From positions 38,256 through 102,255 of the forward strand of contig CAWIOW010000031.1 of NCBI GenBank assembly GCA_963837785.1: a DNA stretch of 64,000 nucleotides. Direction: 5' to 3'. The notes beneath the pieces were generated by a model that saw nothing but the letters and a program-made list of their open reading frames with translations, was not told the DNA's origin and did not search any database. Shown piece by piece: positions 20,812-44,033 of this stretch (its first letter is position 1; each line of letters begins with the position of its first letter). This stretch comes from an uncultured Deinococcaceae bacterium (GTDB taxonomy: Bacteria > Deinococcota > Deinococci > Deinococcales > Deinococcaceae). The position numbers were made by a program, and so were the translations under genes.

Positions 20812-21093
20812 TGGGATGATAGCCTTATTAGAGAGAGAGTTTTGTCTTCTGAAAGTATCTGATTAGCGCTCCTTTAACTTAAGTTGGATCATTTTTATAT
20901 CTTCCCAAACGTAAAAAATCACATTAGATTAAATCACTATTTCTTTTTAAGCTGAAAACATAAGCGTGCTGGACATCGTTTTTTTAATTGTATGATGATT
21001 ATAATGTGAAAACTAGAGCTGTTTTTAGCATTAACAGAGAAAAATTTTCGTCGTCTGAGACAGTAAATTTCTGAAGGAAAAAGTTGTCTAGCT

Positions 21094-21109
21094 CCCCCCC
21101 CCCCCCCCC
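21094..21109. repeat. C16 homopolymer
   Basis: Read directly; about 300 bp upstream of the first island gene. Confidence 0.9.
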
Positions 21110-21406
21110 ATAATCCGAATCGTCCTATGATGAACGAGCAACAGAAATTTAGGAACCTCAAATGCTAGAGGAATGAATATCTTTAAGCATCCGAGGTTAA
21201 GTGAATTATACCAGCATCAAATCTGTAGTTAAAACAGCACGACTACGGGTTCATGACCCCGTGAAAATCTTTGCCAATCTATAATCACTAATCAGATACC
21301 AAAGCTTATATGGAAACGGCAAGTTATTTTATTTCGCCCGACGCTTTTAGTTTGGTTCTATGGTATCTAAGAGTCATGCGTAGTTTTTCTCTTGTGGAGG
21401 TACTTA

Positions 21407-21505
21407 ATGTCAATTACACTTACTGGATCAGATCTAACAATCGGTGATGTTGAGAAAATTTCACGTTTACACCTGAGGAAAAAGCTTTTCTTTTCGATGA
21501 AGTAA
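21407..21505 (+). pseudogene. 5' stub resembling a histidine/aromatic amino-acid ammonia-lyase (MIO family)
   Basis: GGAGG RBS, then MSITLTGSDLTIGDVEKISR, like the HutH N-terminal I-x-L-x-G-x-x-LT-x-x-DV-x-x-(I/V)-(A/S)-R pattern. It stops after 32 codons. Confidence 0.55.
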
Positions 21506-22119
21506 TTTGTGATCCTAGAGTTGAATTGATACATCCATTTCCATATCTTGATGTTATGACACGAAAGGAGAGAACTTCGCCGGCTGAGGGTTGGAGTGTT
21601 GATCCAATGCGAGCAGATAACTTAGGGCGGGGGGAAGGCAACCTACGAGATTACACTGTAAAGTATCTAAGGCAATTTTCCCCAGAAAATTCTATTTTTT
21701 ATGATCCTGCATGTTTGACAGGCGAATTTTTAGCTGAATTAAAGCGCCATTTCCCAAATTGTATAACTATAAGACAAGACCTTAGTCAGCAAATGGTAGA
21801 TGTCGCTAAGCTTAGAGTTGATCAAGTTGTACAAGGGAATGCTATTAATCCCTATCCTAGTAAGCAGTCAGTAGATTATATGTTTGTTAGATTTTTAAAT
21901 GCTGAGGTAGTAACGTCTGAACAAGCCCACACAATTTTTGATCGATTAGTAGAAGTAATGAAAAATAGTGGTAGGATAATAATATTTGGTCATACTCCTG
22001 TTCTTATTCAATCATCTTACTTTAAGAAAAAAGGATTCATTGTAGATCAAATGCTTGGATACTTAAAAACAGAACCGTACATTTTCCGATATTACGTTTT
22101 ACGAAAATCTACTTCATGA
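21454..22119 (+). CDS. Class I SAM-dependent transferase, similar to Nat-type 3-amino-3-carboxypropyltransferases; probably 5'-truncated
   Basis: YDPACLTGEFL (SAM motif I), DLSQQMV, RFLNAEVV and FGHTPVL. The frame is open from 21454 with no good start or RBS. The Nat similarity is from recall. Confidence 0.6.
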   Translation, partial: ENFTFTPEEKAFLFDEVICDPRVELIHPFPYLDVMTRKERTSPAEGWSVDPMRADNLGRGEGNLRDYTVKYLRQFSPENSIFYDPACLTGEFLAELKRHFPNCITIRQDLSQQMVDVAKLRVDQVVQGNAINPYPSKQSVDYMFVRFLNAEVVTSEQAHTIFDRLVEVMKNSGRIIIFGHTPVLIQSSYFKKKGFIVDQMLGYLKTEPYIFRYYVLRKSTS

Positions 22120-23426
22120 CCAGCAGTGAATTCAAAGAAAATCATTCTAGACTGATTCAACTTTCCAAAAGTAAAGAGACTGTTTTTGAATATCTTTCAA
22201 GCGTATATAATCTAAAAAATCAGTTTGAATCCCCAAGATACACAATACTGAACGAAATACTAGACAGACACATTAAAGCTATGTTTTTGATTAGTCAAAA
22301 TAAATCTAGTACGATATATCAATTGAATCGTGACATTATTTCGTATGCAGAGCATCATGCGTCAATTACTCACCCAGAAACAACGACTGTGGTAGCGAAT
22401 CAACTAATATATGCGAGTAAAGCGAAATCAAGACTCTTGAGTCTTTCTTGTGGTACTATACCACTTAGTAATAATCTCTTCCCTAGAGGATTATTTATAG
22501 GAAATCAACCTATCGCATTTGTGTCGCGAAAATATGATAGCTGTACCCCTTTAACTTGTCCACCCATCAAACCAGAGGCATTGCAAAATATTTTACGCAC
22601 TTTAGAAGAAAGTAATATTTTAGCACCTGAACGTGAAATAATCTTATCAAAATTAGACTCGATTCTTACACCCATGCTTGACACTGATATATTCTGGCGA
22701 CAGATTAGTATTTTAAATAGCGCGCTATTTAAAAATATGTTTTCTGACAATGATTCAGACAATGATCATCAATATTTTATGATCCCTGCGGAGATAATCG
22801 CTAAAGAATTGATTGAATCTCATTGTAAAGGCGAGACTGATCTCTGGTTGCTACGCAATTTATTTCAACCTAAGACACTCCGATTACTTTACGGCACGTT
22901 AAATGGTGTTCGGGGATTTTGGAATACATTAAATCAAAGTGGAACATTCTTTTTTTGGAAAGTAGATAAAAAGGGACGGCTTCATAGATTAAATCTTAAT
23001 GAGAACAATCTTGTGGACGATCAGAATCTGAATTTTTGTGAACTAAGTCCTATTGCAATTCTTGAAGCCATAGAACAACAGCGTTTAATGCCATCTATCT
23101 CATTTGCAATGTTAGTCACGATTTTTCAATTTGGAATCCAGAATTTTGGCGGCCTTCTACAATTTGATTACTTGGCTGAAGCACGTTCGAGGCTCACAAA
23201 GGTAGAAGGGTTAGACTTGACGCTTGATGAAAGCTATATTCTTTCTAAAACTCCTGATTCTTATTATGTTAATTTTGAAGAGAGGACATCTACATCAGGA
23301 GGACTTTTGCGTATAGCTAATGAAATTGGACAACAAGAACTCATGGAATTAGGTAATGAAACGATTGCAGAAAGTTTAGAAGGGTGTATTTCATTTGTGC
23401 GGTCATTATATCATAGCACTTCATAA
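22116..23426 (+). CDS. Hypothetical protein (436 aa), probable biosynthetic enzyme
   Basis: Long ORF coupled by ATGA; enzyme-like motifs SCGTIPLSN..FPRG, GTFFFW and GGLLQFDYL. Confidence 0.8.
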   Translation: MTSSEFKENHSRLIQLSKSKETVFEYLSSVYNLKNQFESPRYTILNEILDRHIKAMFLISQNKSSTIYQLNRDIISYAEHHASITHPETTTVVANQLIYASKAKSRLLSLSCGTIPLSNNLFPRGLFIGNQPIAFVSRKYDSCTPLTCPPIKPEALQNILRTLEESNILAPEREIILSKLDSILTPMLDTDIFWRQISILNSALFKNMFSDNDSDNDHQYFMIPAEIIAKELIESHCKGETDLWLLRNLFQPKTLRLLYGTLNGVRGFWNTLNQSGTFFFWKVDKKGRLHRLNLNENNLVDDQNLNFCELSPIAILEAIEQQRLMPSISFAMLVTIFQFGIQNFGGLLQFDYLAEARSRLTKVEGLDLTLDESYILSKTPDSYYVNFEERTSTSGGLLRIANEIGQQELMELGNETIAESLEGCISFVRSLYHSTS

Positions 23427-23455
23427 GTAAAATACCAACCATGGGAGGCGCAATA

Positions 23456-25381
23456 ATGTGTGGAGTGGTAGGTATAGTTAGTTTTGACGCTAAAATTGAT
23501 AAGAGCTATATTCAAATAGTCAATTCCATGCTAGAGTCTATCTCTCATCGTGGTCCAGATAGTAGTGGGATATTTTTAGAAAATAGAGTTGTTCTTGGTG
23601 CATGCCGACTTGCTATAAATGGGATATTGGATGGCGATCAGCCTATAGTGGATCCAAAATCCAAAGTAGCTATTGTATGTAATGGTGAATTATATAATTA
23701 CAAGAATTGGAGGAAACGGTTAGTTGAAAAAGGTCATGAATTTTTAACTAACTCCGATGTTGAAGTGATTCTACATTTATATATAGAATTTGGCATTGAG
23801 TTTATAAATAAGATTGATGCAGAGTTTGTATGCGCGATATATGACCCTAAAGTTGAAACAACTTTTATTATTCGCGATAGATTTGGAGTAAAACCTGTTT
23901 ATTATTATTTTGACGAGCAAAATCTCGTGTTTGCTTCTGAAATTAAAGCAATTTTCCAAGTGCCTGGAACATATCAGGGTATTGATACAACTAATATGCT
24001 ATACTCTTTTCTAAGGTTTGATATTCTAGATAGATCCGCTTTTAAAGGTATAAATATTTTAAAACCAGGAAACTATATAGAATTAAACAAAGAACATATG
24101 ACTGTTCAAAAGTATTGGGATTTTGCGGATTTTCTTGAGGATTTAGAACCTTGTGATGATAGATTTGATCAGGCTTGTCAAAAAACAGATTATCTATTAA
24201 CGCAGTCTGTATCTAAAAGACTCGATTCAGATTCTGAAATCGGATGTTTCCTTTCGGGAGGACTAGATTCATCCTTATTAGTGGCACTTATGAACAAATG
24301 TGGCCCATTAAAGTCTATTAAAACCTTCTCTATTAACTTTACTGACACTAGATATAGTGAAAAGATGTATTTCAACTTGGTGTCTGATTTGTTTGAAACT
24401 AGCCACCATTCTATAGAAGTAAGCGCGCGCGACCAAAGCAAACATTTTCCGAAAGCTTTATATCACTGCGAGCATTTCGTACAGCAAATTGATGGAACTG
24501 CAAAACTCATGCTAGCCGAGTTGGCATCTAAAAGTGTTAAGTCTGTATTAGTTGGAGAAGGTGCTGATGAAATTTTTCTTGGCTATCCCAGCTTTCTTTT
24601 ATCCCAAAGCTTAAATTATGGGGTAGAGGATATAAGAAGCATTGTTTCAAGACAGACTTCTAGATATGGCATCGACTATATAGAAAATCAAAATCGAAAA
24701 GTAGAAAAAATGATCGAAAAATACGGTTATTATCCAATGCAAGTTGACGCACTAGATAGTATTATAGATATTGCAAACGAATTATTGTCCCCTGAATTTA
24801 AATCTCAGCTATCATCTAAAGATTTCTTGGATTATGCTTTAAAAGACGCAAAGGTTAAAAAAAACATTTCATCAGTTAAAAATGAGCAGATTGTTTCAGT
24901 TAAAGAAACCATGCCGTCTTATCTCTTTGAATACCTCGGTGGTAAGGTTGAAATGGCCTCATCAATAGAGAGCAGGCTACCGTACCTTGATTTTGAACTC
25001 GTAAAATACGCGTGTTCCTTACCTATCGATTATCATATTCATGGAGGGATAGAAAAATTTTTATTGCGTTCAGTGTCAGCGACATCTCTACCAAAAGAGC
25101 TAGCAGACCGGCCAAAGCATGGATTCTCATCTTCGATAACTGATGGGTTTTTAGGATTAGAAAAAATTGATTATTTCGATCATTTCACCTCGCCCGAGTA
25201 TTGCGATAGCATAGGATATTTTGATGGTAAAGCTGTCCAAAAGTTAAAATCAAAAATTGTTTCTACTTACTCGATGAATAATCAGATCAGAACTATGAGA
25301 GAACGTGCTCTAGTATTTGTTTTATCTGTTCACTTACTAGATGTAATGTTCTCACCTAACAAAAGCCATCAAATATGTTAA
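23456..25381 (+). CDS. Asparagine synthetase B-like glutamine amidotransferase
   Basis: N-terminal MCG, HRGPD, CNGELYN, RDRFGVKP, LSGGLDSS and GEGADE; GGAGG RBS. Confidence 0.92.
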   Translation: MCGVVGIVSFDAKIDKSYIQIVNSMLESISHRGPDSSGIFLENRVVLGACRLAINGILDGDQPIVDPKSKVAIVCNGELYNYKNWRKRLVEKGHEFLTNSDVEVILHLYIEFGIEFINKIDAEFVCAIYDPKVETTFIIRDRFGVKPVYYYFDEQNLVFASEIKAIFQVPGTYQGIDTTNMLYSFLRFDILDRSAFKGINILKPGNYIELNKEHMTVQKYWDFADFLEDLEPCDDRFDQACQKTDYLLTQSVSKRLDSDSEIGCFLSGGLDSSLLVALMNKCGPLKSIKTFSINFTDTRYSEKMYFNLVSDLFETSHHSIEVSARDQSKHFPKALYHCEHFVQQIDGTAKLMLAELASKSVKSVLVGEGADEIFLGYPSFLLSQSLNYGVEDIRSIVSRQTSRYGIDYIENQNRKVEKMIEKYGYYPMQVDALDSIIDIANELLSPEFKSQLSSKDFLDYALKDAKVKKNISSVKNEQIVSVKETMPSYLFEYLGGKVEMASSIESRLPYLDFELVKYACSLPIDYHIHGGIEKFLLRSVSATSLPKELADRPKHGFSSSITDGFLGLEKIDYFDHFTSPEYCDSIGYFDGKAVQKLKSKIVSTYSMNNQIRTMRERALVFVLSVHLLDVMFSPNKSHQIC

Positions 25382-26535
25382 CTAGTTCGTGGAAATTCTT
25401 GTGTTTCAATTTCCTGTTTTATTTTTCAGAGGGATTTTTACTTATTTACTTGTTCAACAGTATTGCTCGAGACGGACTTAATTCTATAAACTCAAGTTTA
25501 GTGTTTGCGGTTTCATATTTGCCTACCATTCTTTTCTCTAAATTAATTTCCAATTATTTTATTAAGTATAGCAATAAAGTCATTCTTAACTCTTTAATTA
25601 CCTTAAGAATAATCCTTTGTATATCTGTTTATTATTTCTTTCCAAGCCAAAAGATACTTACTACACTCTTATATGTGTTTTTTATGGAGTTTTTGTGGTA
25701 TTACGCTGCCCCAATTATAGATAAAATGCAATCAGAAATATACGATAATTTAAATATGACAAAGCCTGAGTCTCTTCTTCAAGTCATTATTCAAATATCT
25801 TTATTTTTTTCACTTTTTTTAGGAGGGTATTTAGCAGATAAATTGGATTCCAATGTTTTGTTGCTGTTAACAGCAGTTTTACATATTTTATGTTTAGTAA
25901 TATCGTCTGGTATTACACACTCAAACGAAGATATCAAGAAGAGTCAAGAAAATTTTATTTATAGAACAGAAACCAAAAACAGCTCCTTCCCCATTGAACT
26001 CTTTGTATTGGGCGGTATTATAACTGCCTTCCCTCAAATATTAAATATTTTGTTGCCGTTAAAAATTTTCAATGTGTTTGGTGATTCAGCCAGTCTTGGT
26101 TTCATAGATGGATTATATAGCATCGGTGCGTTGTGTGCAAGTGTGTTTGGAGGTTTTATATTAATAAAATCGCGGTATAATCGTAGAATGGAGACTATTT
26201 TAATTGTTTTGATCTGTTTCGCTGTTTTAACTTTTTCATTGAGTAATACCATTTTCTTTAGTGCTCTTGTCTATTTCGTCTTAGGAGTTTTGATATCCCT
26301 CATGAAAATAAGAATAAGAAGTGAGATTTTCAAAACCTCAAAAAAGTATGAATCTGTATTTTTTCAAGATTATACACGATTTACATTAATTATAGCTCTA
26401 ATTTCTTGCTTGCTAACTGGAATATTTGGTCACTTTTTTAACTATGCCTCAGGGTATTTGGTTATAATTTTGGGCGCAATTATATCATTGTATATCGTGA
26501 ACAAAAACAGAAGAGATGATACCGAACTTTTATAG
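25375..26535 (+). CDS. MFS-type exporter
   Basis: About 12 hydrophobic segments; GGYLADKL motif. Confidence 0.8.
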   Translation: MLTSSWKFLCFNFLFYFSEGFLLIYLFNSIARDGLNSINSSLVFAVSYLPTILFSKLISNYFIKYSNKVILNSLITLRIILCISVYYFFPSQKILTTLLYVFFMEFLWYYAAPIIDKMQSEIYDNLNMTKPESLLQVIIQISLFFSLFLGGYLADKLDSNVLLLLTAVLHILCLVISSGITHSNEDIKKSQENFIYRTETKNSSFPIELFVLGGIITAFPQILNILLPLKIFNVFGDSASLGFIDGLYSIGALCASVFGGFILIKSRYNRRMETILIVLICFAVLTFSLSNTIFFSALVYFVLGVLISLMKIRIRSEIFKTSKKYESVFFQDYTRFTLIIALISCLLTGIFGHFFNYASGYLVIILGAIISLYIVNKNRRDDTELL

Positions 26536-26590
26536 TTCTAAATATTTACATTTCCGAACAATGATATTTAAGAATAGAGCTGCCATATAG

Positions 26591-26854
26591 CTGATGTTAC
26601 GCGCTGACAAAACCAATTTTCTAACATTTTATTAAGTTTTCATTTTCCCTAATCAATGTATATTGATAGATTACATCACTTTAGTTAAGTTCTTGTAAAT
26701 TTTGTCGCCTTTTATTAAGACTAATTGTGCGAAAATCACAATGTGTATCACGAAAAATGAGTTGTTTTTGAGGCAAATTTTTATGTAAACACCTTCTGTT
26801 TTTATTAAATCGCAATGTTCCCAGAAAATCCGAAATGTTGTCGCGTAACATCAG
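26591..26854. mobile_element. 264-bp MITE-like element
   Basis: Perfect 13-bp terminal inverted repeats CTGATGTTACGCG / CGCGTAACATCAG; flanks ATATAG/ATATAA; no internal ORF. Confidence 0.65.
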
Positions 26855-26876
26855 ATATAATTCGATTATGAATTAT

Positions 26877-26968
26877 ACGGCGATTAGGGGTTGATAGAGG
26901 GGATTTGAAAAGAGATAAAGCGCATATTGTAAGAGAGAATAACCAGAGCAACTTTAAGTCTCAAAGAG
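26877..26968 (-). mobile_element. 3' remnant of an IS transposase (IS982-like)
   Basis: The minus strand encodes SLRLKVALVILSYNMRF, like a DDE transposase C-terminus, and ends at ACGGCGATTAGGGGTTGAT, which resembles Deinococcus IS982 ends (from recall). Confidence 0.45.
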
Positions 26969-27214
26969 AGCCAAGGGTATAATCTTATTATGGCTGAACG
27001 TTGCAGTGAGTCACTAATATTTCTAGAAGAGGCTTTAAAGATCCTACGTACTCGATACCCCATATTTCCGCTAATTGAAAAGCGCATTCTTGAGATGATG
27101 CTTGTGGCCCACGCGGAACAGGGGCATGACCAAACCGTGATAGAACTTGAACACGCGCTTGATCAACAAGAAGCCCTTGCCGCCGCAAGACTGGGAGCTG
27201 CTTATACTTCCTGA
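26969..27214 (+). pseudogene. 3' fragment of a helical/TPR-like protein, truncated at the IS remnant
   Basis: QGYNLIMAERCSESLIFLEEALKIL...; begins abruptly at the IS junction and ends at the MFS gene. Confidence 0.4.
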
Positions 27215-28457
27215 AAAACTGTCTGAAAAACTGTGGAATAAGAACTTCACTGCTTACTTTGCAGCCACTGGGTTTTCATGTTTTGGAAGTACCTTCACAT
27301 TAGTAGCTCTGGGCTATCTAACCTACGAGAAAACTGGTTCTACCACAGGCTTTGCTATTAGCCTAGCCATCTCAGCAGGCACGGCTCTGCTAAGCCCTAA
27401 AGCTGGCGTTCTGGTCGATAAATATCCTCTCAAACCGATGCTCGTACTAGGCGATTTTATTCGCGGCTTGCTGCTTCTAGCTTTAGTTTTTGCAACCATA
27501 ACAAACCACTTTCATGTGGCTTTGGTATATATAGTTAGTCTTTTTAATGGGCTAATTGGACTTGTTTACAGGCCGGCTATTGGCAAGTTAATTCCCCGCA
27601 TGGTTCCCAAAAACCAGATCATGCGGGCCAATGGCTTAATGGGATCTATGTATAACACAGCTTCGATTCTTGGTTTCTTACTAAGTGGCACAGTTATGGC
27701 CTTTGTTGGCTCTACAACTACTATGCTTATTGATGCACTGACATTTCTTGTTATGGGCCTCGTCTTCTTATTCATTAATACAGGCGAGAAAGCCGCTGTA
27801 GCTTCAGCTAAACAAACTTCTACGCCAAAGCTCGAAAAGCCCGAAGGAAGCTGGCCCGTCTTTCAGTACATGGTAAGCAGCGGCATGCTCATTTGTCCTT
27901 TGCTCATTTTTCTTAGTTCCTTATACATTGCGCCGTTTCGTATCATTCTGCCTGAGCAGTTTAGCAGCCACATATTTGGTGCATTTTTCGCCTTTTACGC
28001 GATAGGAACTTTGCTTGCGGGCTTAACCACTGCCTATTTTAACCAGCGACTACTCCGCCGAGATGTACTGATAGTTAGTGTGTTGGCTGCACCTGTCTGT
28101 CTGGTACTTGCGGCCCTAACAACTCAGCCAAGCGCTTACTTTGCTATAGCACTACTTCTAGGCTTCTTCAATGACACCAGCAGTACGATCGCCTATTCCA
28201 GTATTCAGATGCTCATTCGTGATGACATTCGAGGTCGGGTGTTTGGCATTATGGGCCTAATTGAACGCGGCGGTATGCCCTTAGCGTACCTCACCCTCTC
28301 TGGTATGATTAATGCCTACTCCACCAGCATAATCTATATCATCTTCGCTACCGTTCTCTTAGCCATCTCACTGGGCATCATTACCTATTTGGTAAAACAA
28401 AATCTGTTAGGGCCAGACTCTCTTACCACTACAGACTCCCTTACCGCCACCGAATGA
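27147..28457 (+). CDS. MFS transporter (DHA3/macrolide-efflux-like); true start probably near 27220
   Basis: Motifs LWNKNF, AGVLVDKY, ANGL and RGRVFG. Confidence 0.88.
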   Translation: MNTRLINKKPLPPQDWELLILPEKLSEKLWNKNFTAYFAATGFSCFGSTFTLVALGYLTYEKTGSTTGFAISLAISAGTALLSPKAGVLVDKYPLKPMLVLGDFIRGLLLLALVFATITNHFHVALVYIVSLFNGLIGLVYRPAIGKLIPRMVPKNQIMRANGLMGSMYNTASILGFLLSGTVMAFVGSTTTMLIDALTFLVMGLVFLFINTGEKAAVASAKQTSTPKLEKPEGSWPVFQYMVSSGMLICPLLIFLSSLYIAPFRIILPEQFSSHIFGAFFAFYAIGTLLAGLTTAYFNQRLLRRDVLIVSVLAAPVCLVLAALTTQPSAYFAIALLLGFFNDTSSTIAYSSIQMLIRDDIRGRVFGIMGLIERGGMPLAYLTLSGMINAYSTSIIYIIFATVLLAISLGIITYLVKQNLLGPDSLTTTDSLTATE

Positions 28458-28487
28458 CTTCCCGAAAAACATCCTTATGGTAATACT

Positions 28488-29561
28488 ATGACTATCATTC
28501 CCTTGAACGACCTTGGCTGGGATTCTTATTTTGAAACACAACGCGCTCAGTATGCCGATTCCCACTTAGAACCCGCCCGCATAAGCTATGTCGAACGAAC
28601 CATGTATGGCGTTATCACTCCAAATGGAGAAAAGCGGGCCGTACTCTCCGGTCGGTTACAGCACTTCGAGCAAAAATCCCTAGTGGTGGGCGATTGGGTT
28701 CTCATGTCTCTCTTGGGCGAGGATGAGGCATATATTCACCACATCTTAGAACGTAAGACACTGCTTTCCCGCGCCTTTATGAATAAGGACTGGGCCTATT
28801 CTCGCAGCCTAGAAAAACAGGAGATTGCCGCCAACATCGATTACATTTTCATTGTGGTGGCTGCTGACCAAGATTTTAGTGTACGTCGCGTCGAACGATA
28901 CTTATCATGTGCCAAACAGTCGCAAGCTCAGCCCGTTATTCTACTCAATAAGATTGATAAAGCCGATGACCCTGATTACTTGATCGAAGAATTGCGCTCG
29001 GTGGCCTTCGGAGTGCCCGTACTCTCATTATCTGTTCAGGAAAATCAAGGGCTAGAGCAGTTGGCACCCTACTTCAAGCACACTATTGCCATCGTTGGCT
29101 CCTCTGGCGTAGGCAAATCCAGCCTAATCAATGCGCTCTGTGGTCGTGAGGTTCAGGCTTACGGCCCTGTGCGTAGCATGGATGACAAAGGTCAACACAC
29201 CACCACCCGCCGCGACCTACAACCGCTAGGTGGCGGTGGCATCCTCATCGATAATCCAGGTATCCGTGAAATTCAAATCTGGGCCGATGAACATGATGTT
29301 CAAGATGTCTTCTCGGATATTGAAGCGCTTGCACATGCTTGCCAATACCGAGATTGCACGCACAATAAGGAATCGGGCTGTGCAGTACTTGAGGCGGTAA
29401 ATAACGGCACTCTCGATCAAGGACGCCTTAAAAACTTTCGTCAGTTGTTGCAAGAAGCCAACTTGGTCGAGACTTACGACCGACAGGGTGCCGCCAAAAA
29501 GGAAGCCCGCAATCGTCGTCAGCGTATCAACACGAGCCTGCGAATGAAAGGCAAACGCTAA
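28488..29561 (+). CDS. rsgA: Ribosome small subunit-dependent GTPase A
   Basis: VVGDWV, NKID, GSSGVGKSSLIN, HTTT, DNPG and the Zn site CQYRDCTH..E.GC. Confidence 0.92.
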   Translation: MTIIPLNDLGWDSYFETQRAQYADSHLEPARISYVERTMYGVITPNGEKRAVLSGRLQHFEQKSLVVGDWVLMSLLGEDEAYIHHILERKTLLSRAFMNKDWAYSRSLEKQEIAANIDYIFIVVAADQDFSVRRVERYLSCAKQSQAQPVILLNKIDKADDPDYLIEELRSVAFGVPVLSLSVQENQGLEQLAPYFKHTIAIVGSSGVGKSSLINALCGREVQAYGPVRSMDDKGQHTTTRRDLQPLGGGGILIDNPGIREIQIWADEHDVQDVFSDIEALAHACQYRDCTHNKESGCAVLEAVNNGTLDQGRLKNFRQLLQEANLVETYDRQGAAKKEARNRRQRINTSLRMKGKR

Positions 29562-29569
29562 AACCAACT

Positions 29570-29651
29570 GGTACTCATAAATGGGTACTCATAAATGGGT
29601 ACTCATAAATGGGTACTCATAAATGGGTACTCATAAATGGGTACTCATAAA
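29570..29651. repeat. Tandem repeat GGTACTCATAAATG x5.9 (14 bp), intergenic
   Basis: Read directly from the sequence. Confidence 0.97.
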
Positions 29652-38798: not shown

Positions 38799-41116
38799 TT
38801 TCTATTTTTCCTATTCGTCATCACGGCCCCGGTTCGGCGCGTTCACTGCAAAAAGCACTAGAAAAGCTTAGGCCCGATATTGTACTTATTGAAGGCCCAG
38901 CCGACGCCGACCCCGTTATTCCGTTTTTATCGCACCCACAATTAAAGCCGCCAGTGGCACTTTTGGCTTATGTTAATGACAATCCTGCTAGGGCTGCTTT
39001 TTGGCCTTTTGCGGTTTTTAGTCCGGAATTTGTGGCATTTCAATGGGCGGCACAGGCTAGCAAAGTGGCGCGTTTTATGGACTTGCCTGCTAGTGCCACT
39101 TTAGGCATAAGCAAGCCCGACCCAGACAGTGCTAATTCAGACAGTGCTAATTCAGACAGTGCTAATTCAGACAGTGCTAATTCAGACAGTGTTAATTCAG
39201 ATGATGAACTGCGTGCCGACCCTATGCAGGTTTTGGCACAGGCGGCAGGGTACAGCGATTTTGAGTGCTGGTGGGAAACGTTGGTAGAAGCACGCGGGGA
39301 CGATACAGACGTATTCGCGGCGATTTTGGAGGCCATGCAAGAACTACGGGCCACCTCCAAAACGCTTACATTGCGCGAAGCCCAGCGTGAGGCGCACATG
39401 CGCGGGGCTATACGGGCGGCCCAAAAAGAAGGATTTATCAATATTGCTGTGGTTTGCGGGGCATGGCATTCGCCTGCGCTGGATGTAGAAGCATTTAAGG
39501 TGAAAGACGACACTGCGCTGCTAAAAGGGCTGCCTAAAGCCAAAGTAACCCTAACTTGGGTGCCTTGGACACATGGGCGATTGGCAAATATCAGCGCGGG
39601 AGAGTGGCAGTACGGCGCGGGGGTGCGCTCGCCAGGGTATTACCACCACCTTTTTATTACGCCAAAGGAGGTAACTGAGCGGTGGTTTGTACGTGTGGCG
39701 CGGCTCTTGCGTGATGAAAAACTAGAAGCCAGCAGCGCCAGCGTGATAGAGGCAACCCGCCTAGCCAATACCCTTGCAGCCCTTCGTGGACGCACTCTTG
39801 CTGGACTAGATGAACTAAACGAGGCCGCCCTAAGTGTGTTTGGCTGGGACAGTGACCTTCCGCTAAGGCTTATCTCCGAAAAACTGATTGTGGGTGAGGC
39901 TTTAGGCCGAGTACCCGACGACACGCCCACCGTGCCACTGGCCCAAGACTTAAGCAAGCAACAGAAAAAACTGCGCTTAAAGGTTCAAACCGAGCAGCTT
40001 AAATTAGAGCTAGACCTGAGAACCGACAATGATTTGGCGCGAAGTACGCTGTTTTATCGCCTTAATTTGCTGGGCATAGCCTGGGCCAACCAGCGGTACA
40101 GCAGTGGGCAGGGCACTTATAAAGAAGCCTGGGCACTCACTTGGAAACCCGAAATGAGCGTGCAAGTAGTAGAGGCCAGCCTCTATGGTCAGACTGTAGA
40201 GCAAGCCGCTAGCGCACAGGCCAGCGAAACGGCCCGCCGTAGCCAGTCTCTAATTGAACTTAGCAAACTACTAGAAATTATTCGTTATGCCGACCTGACC
40301 GCAGCCTTGCCTACCGCGCTAGATTCCTTAAATGCTCGCGCCGCCCAAAGCGCCGATGTCAGCGATTTGTTGGAAGCCTTGCCGCCGCTGGCCCGCCTTT
40401 CTCGCTATGGGGATGTGCGCAGGCGCAACGCTGGGGCGAGTGAGCAAATTAATAACGCTATCAATAACGCTATCAATAACGCTACCGATAACGCGACTGC
40501 CACCGCTTTAGCGTTACTTACACGCGCCTGTGTGGGCTTGCCTATTGCCGCCATTGGTTTGAGCGACACCGCTGCCGAAGTGTTGCAAAAGGCTGTAGCG
40601 AATGCTGATGCTGCCGTACATTTGCTAGCCAATGCCGACGCCCTAGCCGAATGGCAAGAAGCCCTGCAACACCTAGCCGATAGGGAAGACACTCACCCCT
40701 TACTAAACGGCGACGCTACCCGCAGGCTACGCGACGCCCAAAAATTAAATACAGATGAACTAGAACGCCGTATGGCTTTGGCCTTGGCTGCAAGTCATCC
40801 CCCGCTAGAAGTTACGGCTTGGTTAGACGGGTTTTTGGGCAAAAATGGTGACCTGCTTATTCATGATAAGACCCTGCTATCCTTAATAGACGGCTGGCTT
40901 AGCTTTCTTGATCCCGAAACTTTTCAAGAAGCATTGCCACTCTTAAGGCGAACCTTTTCGCGCTTTGCCAAAGCTGAACGTAGGGCTATTGGGGAAAATT
41001 TAAAAGGTGGCAGCCTAAATATTAAGGCTGTGCAAAACGAGCTACACGCACAGCGGGCCATGCGAGTGGTGCCGATAGCCTTAAGAATACTGGGAATAGC
41101 CAAGCTAGAAAAATGA
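38795..41116 (+). CDS. DUF5682 family protein (YehM-like)
   Basis: Motifs IRHHGPGSA, LIEGP, FSPE, REAHM and VVCGAWH. Confidence 0.88.
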   Translation: MISIFPIRHHGPGSARSLQKALEKLRPDIVLIEGPADADPVIPFLSHPQLKPPVALLAYVNDNPARAAFWPFAVFSPEFVAFQWAAQASKVARFMDLPASATLGISKPDPDSANSDSANSDSANSDSANSDSVNSDDELRADPMQVLAQAAGYSDFECWWETLVEARGDDTDVFAAILEAMQELRATSKTLTLREAQREAHMRGAIRAAQKEGFINIAVVCGAWHSPALDVEAFKVKDDTALLKGLPKAKVTLTWVPWTHGRLANISAGEWQYGAGVRSPGYYHHLFITPKEVTERWFVRVARLLRDEKLEASSASVIEATRLANTLAALRGRTLAGLDELNEAALSVFGWDSDLPLRLISEKLIVGEALGRVPDDTPTVPLAQDLSKQQKKLRLKVQTEQLKLELDLRTDNDLARSTLFYRLNLLGIAWANQRYSSGQGTYKEAWALTWKPEMSVQVVEASLYGQTVEQAASAQASETARRSQSLIELSKLLEIIRYADLTAALPTALDSLNARAAQSADVSDLLEALPPLARLSRYGDVRRRNAGASEQINNAINNAINNATDNATATALALLTRACVGLPIAAIGLSDTAAEVLQKAVANADAAVHLLANADALAEWQEALQHLADREDTHPLLNGDATRRLRDAQKLNTDELERRMALALAASHPPLEVTAWLDGFLGKNGDLLIHDKTLLSLIDGWLSFLDPETFQEALPLLRRTFSRFAKAERRAIGENLKGGSLNIKAVQNELHAQRAMRVVPIALRILGIAKLEK
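39123..39201. repeat. In-frame 15-bp repeat CAGACAGTGCTAATT (DSANS) x5
   Basis: Read directly; the last copy is DSVNS. Confidence 0.96.
40451..40486. repeat. In-frame 12-bp repeat AATAACGCTATC (NNAI) x3
   Basis: Read directly from the sequence. Confidence 0.88.
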
Positions 41117-41596
41117 TAGAAGGTTGTTAAATTTGATGAATAATGATGGAATTTATAAGATTATTTAAAGATTAAGCTAAGATAGTTGATATATTTGCTG
41201 TGGATTTTAATCTACTCTAAAGTTAATCAAAGTATTTTGGCGGAGATGTAGACTCTTTAAATGGGCCTCATTGCTGAAATCTGCGACCAAAGTGGAGCGT
41301 AATACTATTTTTCTGTGCCCGATAGTTTCCCTCAAAGTAGATTCCCTCAAAGGACTGTGGTTTTAGTCTGTACTACGCTAAAAATGATCTTTTGAAGGCT
41401 AAACTTAAGTTTTTGGCTTTTCTCAACTGGATAAACAGCGTTAAACAAATAAAAACACAGTTTATATACTCTTGAGTAATATCTCAACTCATTTTGAGTA
41501 TATTTCTTATTTTTATAAAGGTAATAATTCTGAAATCTACCTATAACTAAGATTATTAAGAAGTATTTGAAAGTTTTTAATTGGAGGATATTGTAG

Positions 41597-43594
41597 ATGA
41601 GTAATATTGCCCATCATTCTAAAACTCATAGGCAAACATCATCTTTGCCGCAAACTAAAGGAAAAGAATGGCAAGGAGCTGCTACGGTATGGATTATTTT
41701 AACTGGTGTAATAGTAGCTCACTTACTTGTATTACTTCAATTTTGGATTTTCCCACAATATTGCTATTTACCAGATAAATGGTTTAGTATTGTTATACTA
41801 TTATGTATGTTTGGCTTGGCTTTAGCCAACCTGATGCATTGGATTACCAAGAAAACGGTATTTTCAATGTTAATTATTATGAATATGGTATTTTTGCTGA
41901 CCAGATTTGGATTTTCTTTATTTGTTGTCGGGAGCATAGGAAAAATTCAAACCGAGCTTTCCACTTTTATGATTTGGTCTTTAACTATACCTATGCTAGC
42001 GGTGAGTGTGAAAGTAACACGCCTTGCCAAGCAGGCAAGTATTGCTCTGCCATTTGTGATATTATTGATGTCACTTGCTTTTTTTGGTTACCACAAATTT
42101 TCGATAAACTCAGAGATATGGTTTGGTCTTATTCAATTAATACTCGTATCTTTTACAGTTCTTCTTTCGGCTCAATCTATTAATAAACTAAGAGCCGCTC
42201 TTAAAAATAGTATAGCTGATAACAATACTTTAAGTTGACTTGCCTTTCAAGACAACTTAACTGGACTAAGAAACCGTGCTTTTTTAGATCAATACCTAGC
42301 TAAGCTTTGTGATAATGATCAGAAACTAGCCGTATTGTTTTTTGATTTAGATGGATTTAAGGCTATTAATGATACCTTGGGCCACGCTACAGGTGATCAG
42401 GTTTTGCGATTGGTAGCAAAGCGATTGACTAATCTTAGCCATCCTATTCTTAGCCATCCTGTAAATTGTATGGCTCGTGTTAGTGGTGATGAATTTGTAG
42501 TGGTTATAGAAGGCCAAACTCATTTAGTAGTAGCCCAGCTTGCTCAAAACATTATTAGCGAATTAGTTATGCCTTTTAGTATAGATGGTAATTTATTGGG
42601 CCTAAGTGCCAGTATGGGAATCTCATTTTTCCCCCAAGATGCTAAAGATGTTCACGAATTATTACTAAGAGCAGACCGTGCTATGTATGAAGTAAAGCGC
42701 AGTGGCAAAAATGGGTTTCAGTTTTATAAGTCAAATCCTACTGTGATAGATGAGCAGCGCCAGTTTTTAGAGCGAGAACTTCGTTTAGCGCAGGTGCGCG
42801 GTGAATTGTCTTTAGAGTTTCAACCTATTTTTAATATGCATGTCGGCGAAACCGTTTGTCTTGAGGCACTGGTACGATGGAAACACGCTCAATTTGGGAA
42901 GATTGAGCCACGGATTTTTATTGCAATAGCCGAAGAATGTGGTCTTATTTCTACCATTGGCGAATGGGTTCTTAAAGAATCTTTGGCTTCTGCAAGGCGT
43001 TGGTGGGATAATGGTTTTAGCCATATTCGGGTTGCTGTAAATGTTTCACTTTTACAACTCATGCAGACCCAATTTGTAGAAGTGGTACGCCTTGCCTTAG
43101 AAGGGGCTAATTTGCCACCAAATGCACTAGAATTAGAAGTTACTGAGGGGATTGACTTACGTGAACGTAGCCAGGTGATGAATACCTTGATTCAATTACA
43201 TGAACTTGGAGTTTTGTTATCACTAGATGACTTTGGTACAGGGTTCGCGTCATTGTCGCACCTTAACGATTTTCCGGTGCAGGTTGTTAAAATCGATAAG
43301 GTCTTTGTTGCCGATTTGGTGGGCACAACCAGCCCCGCCCGTAATCGCTATGTCCGTACTTTAATCGCTGCTATGGTCACAGTGGCTTCAGAATTGGGGT
43401 TAGATTTGGTGGTTGAGGGTATAGAAACCAGAGCGCAATACGAGGAATTGTTATTACTAGGTTGCCGCAGAGGCCAAGGTTATTACTTTTCAAAACCCAT
43501 GCCTGAAGCTGATTTGTTGATGTCGCTTAATCGGCTAAGCTTGGCGGCTGGGAATGTTCTTTGTAATTCAGAAACGACGATGCTTCATTCTTAA
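41597..43594 (+). pseudogene. Membrane GGDEF-EAL protein split by one in-frame TGA (42236-42238)
   Basis: The frame continues past the TGA as LAFQDNLTGLRNR...FFDLDGFK, then SGDEF, EALVRW and DDFGTG. Confidence 0.85.
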
Positions 43595-43982
43595 ACGCTT
43601 CATTCTTAAGCTGGCGAAAACAGGCACAGAAATAGGAGATAGCCCTAAAAGTCCGCTCCGCAGCATCCGTCTCTCGGTCAGCTACGTAGCCAGCTTTGGG
43701 GCCGTTTGGTAATAGATAAATAATTTGCTAGAATATGTGTGTAGCTAAATTGAAGCGCGAAAGTTAAGGCTTTATTCTTCTCTAGCAAGGAGACTTATTC
43801 ATGACAGAGGCCGTTGTAAAGCAAGTTAAGCTGAAAAAAATGAATTCAGCCAAGCAAAGATATAGATTTGTATTGGTTCATAATTTTAAGCAAACTTCTC
43901 TAATAAGCCATAAAACTATCTTAAATCATTTAAAATCTGCATTTACATTTAATTGTAACCTATTTAATCACTTGGAAACCAG

Positions 43983-44033
43983 CCTATGACTAATCCTATG
44001 ACTAATCCTATGACTAATCCTATGACTAATCCT
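43983..44033. repeat. 12-bp repeat CCTATGACTAAT x4 containing the start codon (MTNP x4)
   Basis: Read directly from the sequence. Confidence 0.96.

What the first reader, a model, noticed from the sequence alone, without database searches (positions are those of the whole stretch)
21407..26535. Uncharacterised small-molecule biosynthetic cluster on an AT-rich island
Seen: a tightly coupled operon of an ammonia-lyase-like stub, a SAM-dependent transferase (DPACLTG, RFLNAEV, FGHTPV), an unknown 436-aa protein, an AsnB-like amidotransferase with intact Cys2 and SGGLDSS, and an MFS exporter. Known (recalled): these transferase motifs resemble Nat, the nocardicin 3-amino-3-carboxypropyltransferase; AsnB-like enzymes form amides in secondary metabolism; MIO lyases supply deaminated or beta-amino acids. 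Inference: an NRPS-independent pathway to an aminocarboxypropylated, amidated amino-acid-derived metabolite. I do not recognise this gene combination.
Basis: partly seen in the sequence, partly recalled or inferred. Interest (0 to 1): 0.75.

Follow-up and report, generated by a model that had tools for sequence, protein, structure and literature searches.

The report
Broken copy of undescribed biosynthetic cluster
This AT-rich, likely imported gene block is a damaged copy of an uncharacterised small-molecule pathway whose three core genes lie intact side by side in two Streptomyces strains; it would attach a homoserine unit to a phenol and form amide bonds, using an unannotated enzyme predicted to fold like the poorly understood ligase BshC.

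Summary
The genes are real and lie on an AT-rich insert (34% GC against 47%), but this copy is broken. A 32-codon lyase-like stub runs out of frame into a Nat-like aminocarboxypropyltransferase. That transferase lacks about 120 N-terminal residues and a good start codon, and carries S86L and G105R at near-invariant columns. An IS66 end sits 107 bp upstream.

The other three genes have full-length frames: a 436-aa unknown, an AsnB-like amidotransferase and an MFS exporter. The unknown has no Pfam or NCBIfam family. Its model matches BshC (Z 17.6), then class I tRNA synthetases, so it is likely an amide-forming ligase.

Full-length transferase, unknown and AsnB carry consecutive accession numbers in two Streptomyces strains. 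A metagenome contig keeps the order transferase-unknown-AsnB-MFS in decayed form. None of 363 other genomes of the host phylum has the transferase or the unknown.

Best reading: the intact cluster is an NRPS-independent route to an amidated, aminoacylated O-aryl-homoserine compound, and it is probably dead here. The chemistry is inferred, the lyase identity of the stub is only suggestive, and nine literature searches found no such cluster.

The parts
20855..21099 (.). Non-coding repeat (MITE-like) starting with the same 12-bp terminal sequence as the genome's IS66 element
   Evidence: 51 blastn hits in the genome; shared terminus
21202..21299 (.). Isolated 98-bp end of an IS66-family element, 107 bp upstream of the stub start
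   Evidence: 84-94% identical to ends of a 1439-bp element with 8-bp target duplications, whose ORF is DDE_Tnp_IS66, E 6e-33; no matching duplication here
21407..21505 (+). 32-codon stub behind a GGAGGT ribosome-binding site (21396-21401); first about 20 residues resemble the N-terminus of MIO aromatic amino-acid lyases, the rest is out-of-frame transferase DNA
   Evidence: profile from 30 histidine ammonia-lyase loci: 2 of 4216 null N-termini as high, 5 of 5000 shuffles; no library hit
21460..22119 (+). 5'-truncated Nat-like (isonocardicin-synthase-like) 3-amino-3-carboxypropyltransferase remnant, 219 open codons, with S86L, G105R and Q210R at near-invariant columns
22116..23426 (+). Protein X, 436 aa, full-length frame, unannotated family with a predicted BshC / class I aminoacyl-tRNA-synthetase-like fold; likely amide-forming ligase
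   Evidence: No Pfam or NCBIfam hit; 923 related clusters; model pLDDT 83.7; Foldseek E 5e-5, prob 1.0 and Z 17.6, rmsd 4.2 over 352 residues to BshC 4wbd
23456..25381 (+). AsnB-like glutamine-dependent amidotransferase, 641 aa, full-length frame (Cys2, SGGLDSS, GEGADE); member of a distinct subgroup
   Evidence: TIGR01536 403 bits over cut-off 267; closest three homologues 49-50%, generic AsnB about 30-34%
25375..26535 (+). MFS transporter, 386 aa, full-length frame; likely exporter
   Evidence: MFS_1 E 9e-11; about 10 hydrophobic segments; counterpart at the same position in L002, E 2e-32
27147..29561 (+). Second MFS gene and an RsgA-like GTPase: inside the stretch that a relative lacks, but with host-like GC (47.5%); not counted as part of the cluster

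Best explanation
The block is a deletion-damaged, likely horizontally acquired copy of a conserved cluster (Nat-like transferase, BshC-fold protein X, AsnB-like amidotransferase, MFS transporter) that, when intact, would make and export a small amidated O-aryl-homoserine compound without an NRPS, and this copy probably makes nothing. Shown: gene content, truncation, low GC, absence from 363 related genomes, conserved order elsewhere, and family or fold of each protein. [quoted passage not shown] The order of steps 2-4 is unknown. Here a deletion joined about codon 20 of the first gene to about codon 120 of the transferase, removing steps 1 and 2.
For: Truncation: eight full-length homologues align only from residue 117-133 onward, and their first 125 residues have no match in the genome at E < 0.1. 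No ribosome-binding site before TTG 21526 or ATG 21556, a perfect one before the stub. Two radical changes at 37 near-invariant columns; 1 of 40 homologues has as many. IS66 end just upstream. Foreign origin: GC 34%, GC3 24-30% against 46-53% in flanking genes, 0 of 363 other phylum genomes with the transferase or X, and one relative (G010, L018) with the flanking NUDIX and greA genes about 240 bp apart. Conserved cluster: accessions MEV5147188/189/190 and MEV5387263/262/261 for transferase/X/AsnB in Streptomyces sp. NPDC052727 and NPDC052721; these proteins are the first or second best non-self hits in all three searches; L002 keeps the four-gene order. Chemistry: a mollusc Nat homologue modifies phenol oxygen and needs it (PMC11869996, section 8); X fold; distant X relatives are fused to ATP-grasp-like domains (4 of 26 scanned, 1 over the Pfam cut-off) or lie in plasmid clusters with ATP-grasp and MFS genes.
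Against: No enzyme was assayed and no substrate is known. The gene upstream of the Streptomyces transferase could not be fetched, so a lyase in the intact cluster is unverified. L002 shows no lyase match in the locus. The unweighted decay test was not significant (7 of 40 homologues deviate as much; AsnB deviates more than 39 of 40 of its more distant homologues). Natural Nat homologues of 232-243 aa exist, so the lost region may be partly dispensable. X and BshC show no significant profile-profile match (E 0.35, weaker than an unrelated control at 0.034). The two Streptomyces strains share an identical transferase and count as one event. The empty site was seen in only 1 of 10 relatives examined; the other nine have different genes there. 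No sequencing contig covers the junction.
Confidence: 0.55

Rival explanations
1. The intact cluster acts on a non-phenolic acceptor: for example the stub came from a histidine ammonia-lyase and the transferase alkylates an imidazole or amine nitrogen, or it transfers a methyl group.
For: Twenty residues cannot separate histidine, tyrosine and phenylalanine lyases (one search used histidine lyases). Pfam calls the protein a methyltransferase domain. Other Nat-like genes are fused to or beside YcaO genes, so the family serves other pathways. PMC11869996 says the activity of such transferases is hard to predict.
Against: Nat is the only significant sequence hit in the PDB and the top four fold hits (E about 1e-16 to 1e-18, TM 0.85-0.88, against 1e-8 for the best methyltransferase). 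The remnant is 43% identical to a mollusc homologue (P0054) of the group shown to alkylate phenols.
Confidence: 0.17
2. The remaining X-AsnB-MFS genes still work as a smaller module, modifying and exporting a substrate that does not need the transferase.
For: All three frames are full-length, and X has 0 radical changes at 16 near-invariant columns. X and AsnB homologues lie on contigs of equal length (16311 and 8663 bases) for which no Nat-like hit was listed. L002 keeps X and MFS whole while both the transferase and AsnB are deleted internally.
Against: A recent deletion leaves neighbours intact for a time. Promoter-like sites are at chance level (32 found, 27 +/- 6 expected), and IS remnants occupy the upstream region. 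No expression data were obtained.
Confidence: 0.15
3. The stub-transferase junction is an assembly error in a 74.5%-complete genome, and the organism has a complete working cluster.
For: The genome is incomplete, and the one public run found does not cover 21286-22067.
Against: No repeat lies at the junction. The missing pieces are nowhere in the assembly. The remnant has radical changes in its SAM-binding motifs.
Confidence: 0.08
4. A -1 ribosomal frameshift in the A-rich stretch near 21476-21483 joins the stub to the transferase frame and gives an active short enzyme.
For: The two frames overlap in -1 relation and contain G_AAA_AAG. Short natural homologues exist.
Against: The A-run is simply the conserved Glu-Lys codons of the transferase. 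Even the short homologues keep about 20-25 residues that are missing here. S86L and G105R would remain.
Confidence: 0.03

Closest known systems
Nat / isonocardicin synthase of nocardicin biosynthesis (PDB 8zhu, 8zhv, 9upq)
   Same: Class I SAM-binding fold and motifs; E 1.6e-31 over query residues 6-216; model TM 0.85-0.88, 33-35% identity.
   Different: This copy lacks the part matching Nat residues 1-117. No NRPS or other nocardicin gene is in the block. The closest homologues (52-53%) form a separate group with X and AsnB.
Mollusc ACT of the bursatellin-oxazinin (bur-ox) pathway (PMC11869996)
   Same: Nat homologue that makes tyrosine-derived phenolic homoserine ethers from SAM (abstract, part 1 and section 8 read). 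A Pinctada homologue is 43% identical to the remnant.
   Different: bur-ox uses a monomodular NRPS, a P450 and flavin monooxygenases; none is here, and bur-ox as described has no AsnB-like or BshC-fold gene.
BshC (YllA), putative cysteine ligase of bacillithiol synthesis (PDB 4wbd; PF10079)
   Same: Best structural match for X, well above the next (Z 17.6 against 11.5). The weak colinear alignment puts X's GGLLQFDY against GPGEIAY.
   Different: 8-10% identity, no Pfam match, the TGQQ and ASxDHD motifs seen in the 30 fetched BshC proteins are replaced by AEHH and SCGT, X is about 100 residues shorter, no bshA/bshB is nearby, and the genome has its own BshC on another contig. BshC activity had not been shown in vitro as of the 2015 review (PMC4360819, passages).
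AsnB-like glutamine amidotransferases of secondary metabolism (TIGR01536; named examples such as PhzH and OxyD are recalled, not from a call)
   Same: Ntn glutaminase with Cys2 plus an adenylating synthetase domain.
   Different: Own subgroup (CEHxVQQxDG and LGGKxEMA motifs in 13 of the 18 aligned sequences); below the cut-offs for lasso cyclase, NAGGN amidotransferase and PRK09431 AsnB; acceptor unknown.
Staphylopine-type and microcin C aminocarboxypropyl systems (CntL, MccD; PMC10491745 passages)
   Same: Small clusters with an acp transferase; an exporter in these clusters is recalled.
   Different: The review states that NAT is not homologous to NAS, CntL or MccD. No opine dehydrogenase, racemase or precursor peptide is here.

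Membership tests
Nat-like aminocarboxypropyltransferases | Sequence and fold closer to Nat than to methyltransferases | tested here: met
Nat-like aminocarboxypropyltransferases | Full-length gene with N-terminal region and a usable start | tested here: not met
   About 120 residues missing, no ribosome-binding site; met by the Streptomyces orthologue P0033, 341 aa
Nat-like aminocarboxypropyltransferases | Conserved DPACSTG and IGQD motifs | tested here: not met
   S86L (Ser in 40 of 40 homologues) and G105R (Gly in 39 of 40)
Nat-like aminocarboxypropyltransferases | Transfers acp rather than methyl from SAM, onto a phenol | not testable with these tools
   Needs an enzyme assay
BshC (PF10079) | Rossmann / class I synthetase-like core fold of 4wbd | tested here: met
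   (predicted model)
BshC (PF10079) | Match to the family profile and to the TGQQ and ASxDHD motifs | tested here: not met
   No Pfam hit, no NCBIfam BshC hit in 93 members, no PDB hit with the 93-sequence profile, hhalign E 0.35
BshC (PF10079) | Linked to bshA/bshB bacillithiol genes | tested here: not met
   Neighbours are the transferase, AsnB and MFS; a separate BshC lies on contig C21
BshC (PF10079) | Amide-bond (cysteine-adding) ligase activity | not testable with these tools
   Needs an assay
AsnB-like glutamine amidotransferases | N-terminal Cys2 Ntn domain plus PP-loop synthetase domain over the curated cut-off | tested here: met
   TIGR01536 403 > 267 bits; PF00733 and PF13537
MIO aromatic amino-acid lyases (PF00221) | N-terminal sequence pattern | tested here: inconclusive
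   Custom profile suggestive; libraries blank
MIO aromatic amino-acid lyases (PF00221) | MIO-forming motif and full domain | tested here: not met
   The stub is 32 codons; the only PF00221 match in the genome is on contig C33
Nocardicin or bur-ox gene clusters | NRPS gene in the cluster | tested here: not met

The most novel reading that the evidence does not exclude
The intact transferase-X-AsnB-MFS cluster of Streptomyces sp. NPDC052727/NPDC052721 makes an undescribed class of aminoacyl O-aryl-homoserine amides. X is a member of a large unannotated family (over 900 sequence clusters) of BshC / class I synthetase-fold peptide ligases, possibly using aminoacyl-tRNA, which would be a new route to amide bonds in natural products and a tractable model for the unsolved BshC reaction.
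Probability: 0.3. Interest if true: 0.75.

Novelty: new variant of a known kind. Interest (0 to 1): 0.5.

Why it matters
Few aminocarboxypropyltransferases are characterised (PMC11869996 calls them rare). The two Nat-type examples I found in print, nocardicin and bursatellin, are tied to NRPS pathways (the nocardicin link is recalled). A four- or five-gene NRPS-free cluster built around one would point to new chemistry and is small enough to express whole. Protein X matters more. It extends the BshC fold to natural-product clusters, and BshC's own reaction had not been reconstituted as of a 2015 review, so a homologue with identifiable small-molecule partners makes that question testable. The copy in this window is mainly a signpost: it is likely dead, and work should be done on the intact Streptomyces genes.

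Tried and rejected
Loci searches. The genome-contig scan with the transferase gave 1 locus from 110 pattern matches, a weak archaeal hit (E 1e-4 over 43 residues), not used. The metagenome scan with X gave 1 locus from 75 matches. Viral scans gave none, and the 93-sequence alignment had no usable pattern. Plasmids hold only distant X and Nat relatives and generic AsnB genes. The DNA around the Streptomyces triad could not be obtained, so the upstream gene and cluster limits are open.

Sequencing. One public run holds 0.23 of the sampled words. Its short contigs match X, AsnB and both MFS genes almost exactly but do not cover the junction. It may be the source sample and is not counted as support.

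Stub. No hit in Pfam, NCBIfam, PDB (only a repeat protein at E 0.11) or plasmids. It does not align with the genome's own lyase. The atlas search on it did not complete.

X. The atlas returned only 'hypothetical protein' clusters. Profile comparison with BshC is not significant. A HIGH-like motif could not be established, because residue-level structural alignments are not printed.

Other. The promoter scan is at chance level. The unweighted count of conserved-site deviations does not single out the transferase.

Rejected. Beta-lactam synthetase: Cys2 is present (that these enzymes lack it is recalled). Housekeeping asparagine synthetase: separate subgroup on an island. X as the organism's BshC: another copy exists.

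Literature. Searches found no paper on this gene combination or on a BshC-like enzyme in such a cluster. The BshC structure paper was not held, and no Nat structure paper turned up, so residue roles in both are not taken from the primary papers. No supplements were read.
Full report
Setting. The window lies on contig C31 of a 2.43-Mb genome that is 74.5% complete. Its flanking genes are 77-93% identical to those of 40 of 40 same-genus genomes. I read it as Deinococcus-like from gene content; no call names it. The block 21407-26535 is 34.0% GC against 47.1 +/- 2.8%, and 2 of 892 same-size windows are as low. GC at third codon positions is 24-30% against 46-53% in the flanking genes. In 1 of 10 relatives examined (G010, locus L018) the order prfA, NUDIX, greA, HD protein, enoyl-CoA hydratase, S-layer-like gene is the same as here with nothing between NUDIX and greA; the other nine have different genes after NUDIX. 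About 8.9 kb is therefore extra here, including a second MFS gene and an RsgA-like gene of host-like GC. Neither the transferase nor protein X was found in 363 other genomes of the phylum.

The transferase is Nat-like but truncated. The frame 21460-22119 has 219 open codons. Its only significant PDB sequence hit is isonocardicin synthase (8zhu, E 1.6e-31, chain residues 118-325). Its model's top four fold hits are the Nat structures (TM 0.85-0.88), far ahead of methyltransferases. There are 104 database hits including itself; the closest are 331-341 aa. Eight of these align to the window only from residue 117-133 on, and their first 125 residues match nothing in the genome (best E 0.15). The first start codon in frame is TTG 21526, without a ribosome-binding site. 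The remnant carries S86L, G105R and Q210R at columns conserved in 40, 39 and 40 of 40 homologues. Counting only radical changes at columns at least 95% conserved, it has 2 of 37, matched by 1 of 40 homologues. The unweighted count was not significant (7 of 40), and the weighting was chosen afterwards. Shorter natural homologues (232-243 aa) exist, but five of six examined extend about 20-25 aligned residues further upstream than this frame, and the sixth has a low-complexity N-terminus.

The stub. ATG 21407 follows GGAGGT by five bases and opens 32 codons in a different frame. No library recognises it. A profile from the N-termini of 30 histidine ammonia-lyase loci scores it at 14.7. Two of 4216 genome N-termini score as high, and 5 of 5000 shuffles; the training sequences score 19-52. 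This is suggestive of an MIO lyase start, no more. The simplest account is one deletion that joined about codon 20 of the first gene to about codon 120 of the transferase. Upstream lie a MITE-like repeat (20855-21099; 51 genome hits) and a lone 98-bp end of an IS66 element (21202-21299), with no matching target duplication. No public contig covers the junction, so an assembly error is not excluded.

Protein X. It has no Pfam or NCBIfam family (also none meaningful among 26 and 93 relatives). A word search found 8 relatives at 30-38% identity, and a profile search found 923 clusters at E <= 0.001. A tree of 35 sequences puts X in a supported clade of 11 with the Streptomyces and L002-type proteins. 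The model (pLDDT 83.7, pTM 0.86) matches BshC in Foldseek (E 5e-5, prob 1.0, the only hit under 0.001) and in the wide search (Z 17.6, rmsd 4.2, 352 residues). The next hits are class I LysRS (Z 11.5), GlnRS, MshC and other class I synthetases, with cyclodipeptide synthases at Z about 5-6. Sequence support is absent: hhalign against 30 BshC proteins gives E 0.35, weaker than an unrelated control. The alignment is colinear but does not keep BshC's motifs. The genome has its own BshC. So X likely works like BshC or MshC (amide formation) but is not a member of that family. Four of 26 scanned relatives carry ATP-grasp-like domains. Distant relatives on plasmids lie with ATP-grasp, amidinotransferase, FemAB-like and MFS genes, with HypE/HypF, ATP-grasp and MFS genes, or beside an MFS gene. 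Two earlier scan notes describe a similar BshC-fold family in CPR bacteria; they are unchecked and not independent support.

AsnB and MFS. The amidotransferase passes TIGR01536 and keeps Cys2, SGGLDSS and GEGADE. Its three best homologues are 49-50% identical, and about a dozen form a subgroup apart from generic AsnB. The MFS protein matches MFS_1.

Conservation of the cluster. In Streptomyces sp. NPDC052727 the transferase, X and AsnB homologues are MEV5147188, 189 and 190; in NPDC052721 they are MEV5387263, 262 and 261. They are full-length and, by accession number, adjacent in the same order; I did not see the DNA. The two strains share an identical transferase and count once. Equal contig lengths hint at further pairs: transferase and X on 18342 bases, transferase and AsnB on 10492, X and AsnB on 16311 and 8663. 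This is indirect. Metagenome locus L002 (about 63% GC) shows a 69-residue transferase fragment, whole X, an AsnB start followed by a weak internal fragment, and a whole MFS counterpart (E 2e-32), in the same order and without a lyase match. The module thus occurs at both high and low GC and has decayed at least twice.

Mechanism. For the intact cluster I propose an NRPS-free route. A phenolic acid or amino acid from tyrosine is O-alkylated with the aminocarboxypropyl group of SAM, X forms an amide, AsnB converts a carboxylate to a carboxamide, and the MFS protein exports the product. The phenol acceptor rests on the mollusc Nat homologue, which required the phenolic hydroxyl (PMC11869996, section 8), and on nocardicin (recalled). 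All steps are inferred, and the lyase step is the weakest. In this genome the first two steps are lost. Confidence is about 0.85 that this is a broken imported copy of a conserved cluster, and about 0.55 for that together with the outline chemistry. Rivals are a different acceptor or methyl transfer (0.17), a working residual module (0.15), an assembly error (0.08) and a frameshift rescue (0.03).

Comparison and novelty. Each part has a known relative (Nat, BshC, AsnB, MFS), but the combination matched nothing in nine searches of the held literature, which lacks most subscription journals; MIBiG was not available. Papers seen: PMC11869996 (part 1 of 5, passages and section 8), PMC10491745 (passages) and PMC4360819 (passages). 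Verdict: a new variant of a known kind, interest 0.5. The value lies in the intact Streptomyces cluster and in the X family, not in this copy.

Noticed in passing
G000 whole genome: GC is 47%, low for the genus I take this to be (recalled), with many mobile repeats: the 12-bp IS66 terminus occurs 56 times, and a 1439-bp single-ORF IS66 element has 8-bp target duplications.
   Followed up: partly
window 27147-29561: A second MFS gene and the assembly's only RsgA-like GTPase lie inside the stretch missing from relative G010, but have host-like GC, which suggests a separate insertion or rearrangement.
   Followed up: partly
window 29570-29651: Perfect 14-bp tandem repeat (about six units) between the RsgA-like gene and greA, at the right edge of the insert.
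   Followed up: no
window 26586-26859: 37-bp imperfect inverted repeat enclosing 200 bp, with three partial copies elsewhere in the genome; MITE-like. A further short repeat follows at 26876-26974.
   Followed up: partly
window 21094-21109: Run of 16 C at the end of the upstream MITE-like repeat.
   Followed up: no
window 41001-44000: Another AT-rich stretch (33-41% GC).
   Followed up: no
L006:8795-11008 and L007:8559-10597: Nat-like domains fused to (Bacillus cereus plasmid) or directly after (Pantoea plasmid) YcaO-like genes, a second uncharacterised context for this transferase family.
   Followed up: no
L011:1-13395: Streptomyces plasmid cluster (cupin, methyltransferase, SDR, amidinotransferase, dehydrogenase, ATP-grasp, MFS, distant X relative, FemAB-like protein); looks like another undescribed NRPS-free peptide pathway, with matching X relatives on six plasmids.
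   Followed up: no
L012:689-10837: Streptomyces clavuligerus plasmid: a seemingly split X relative after hypE/hypF and a haem-oxygenase-like gene, near ATP-grasp, arginase and MFS genes.
   Followed up: no
L002:9746-12784: Second decayed copy of the cluster in which X and the MFS gene stay whole while the transferase and AsnB are deleted internally; the X cluster has 24 members, so this reduced form may be common.
   Followed up: partly
G000:C33:8495-9859 (L004): The genome's own aromatic amino-acid lyase is of a divergent type (E 3e-118 against about 1e-195 for most relatives; similar scores in G008 and G024).
   Followed up: no
P0149 cluster: An X homologue is conserved across many Streptomyces achromogenes strains, and another occurs in Nonomuraea monospora (P0136); contexts not seen.
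   Followed up: no
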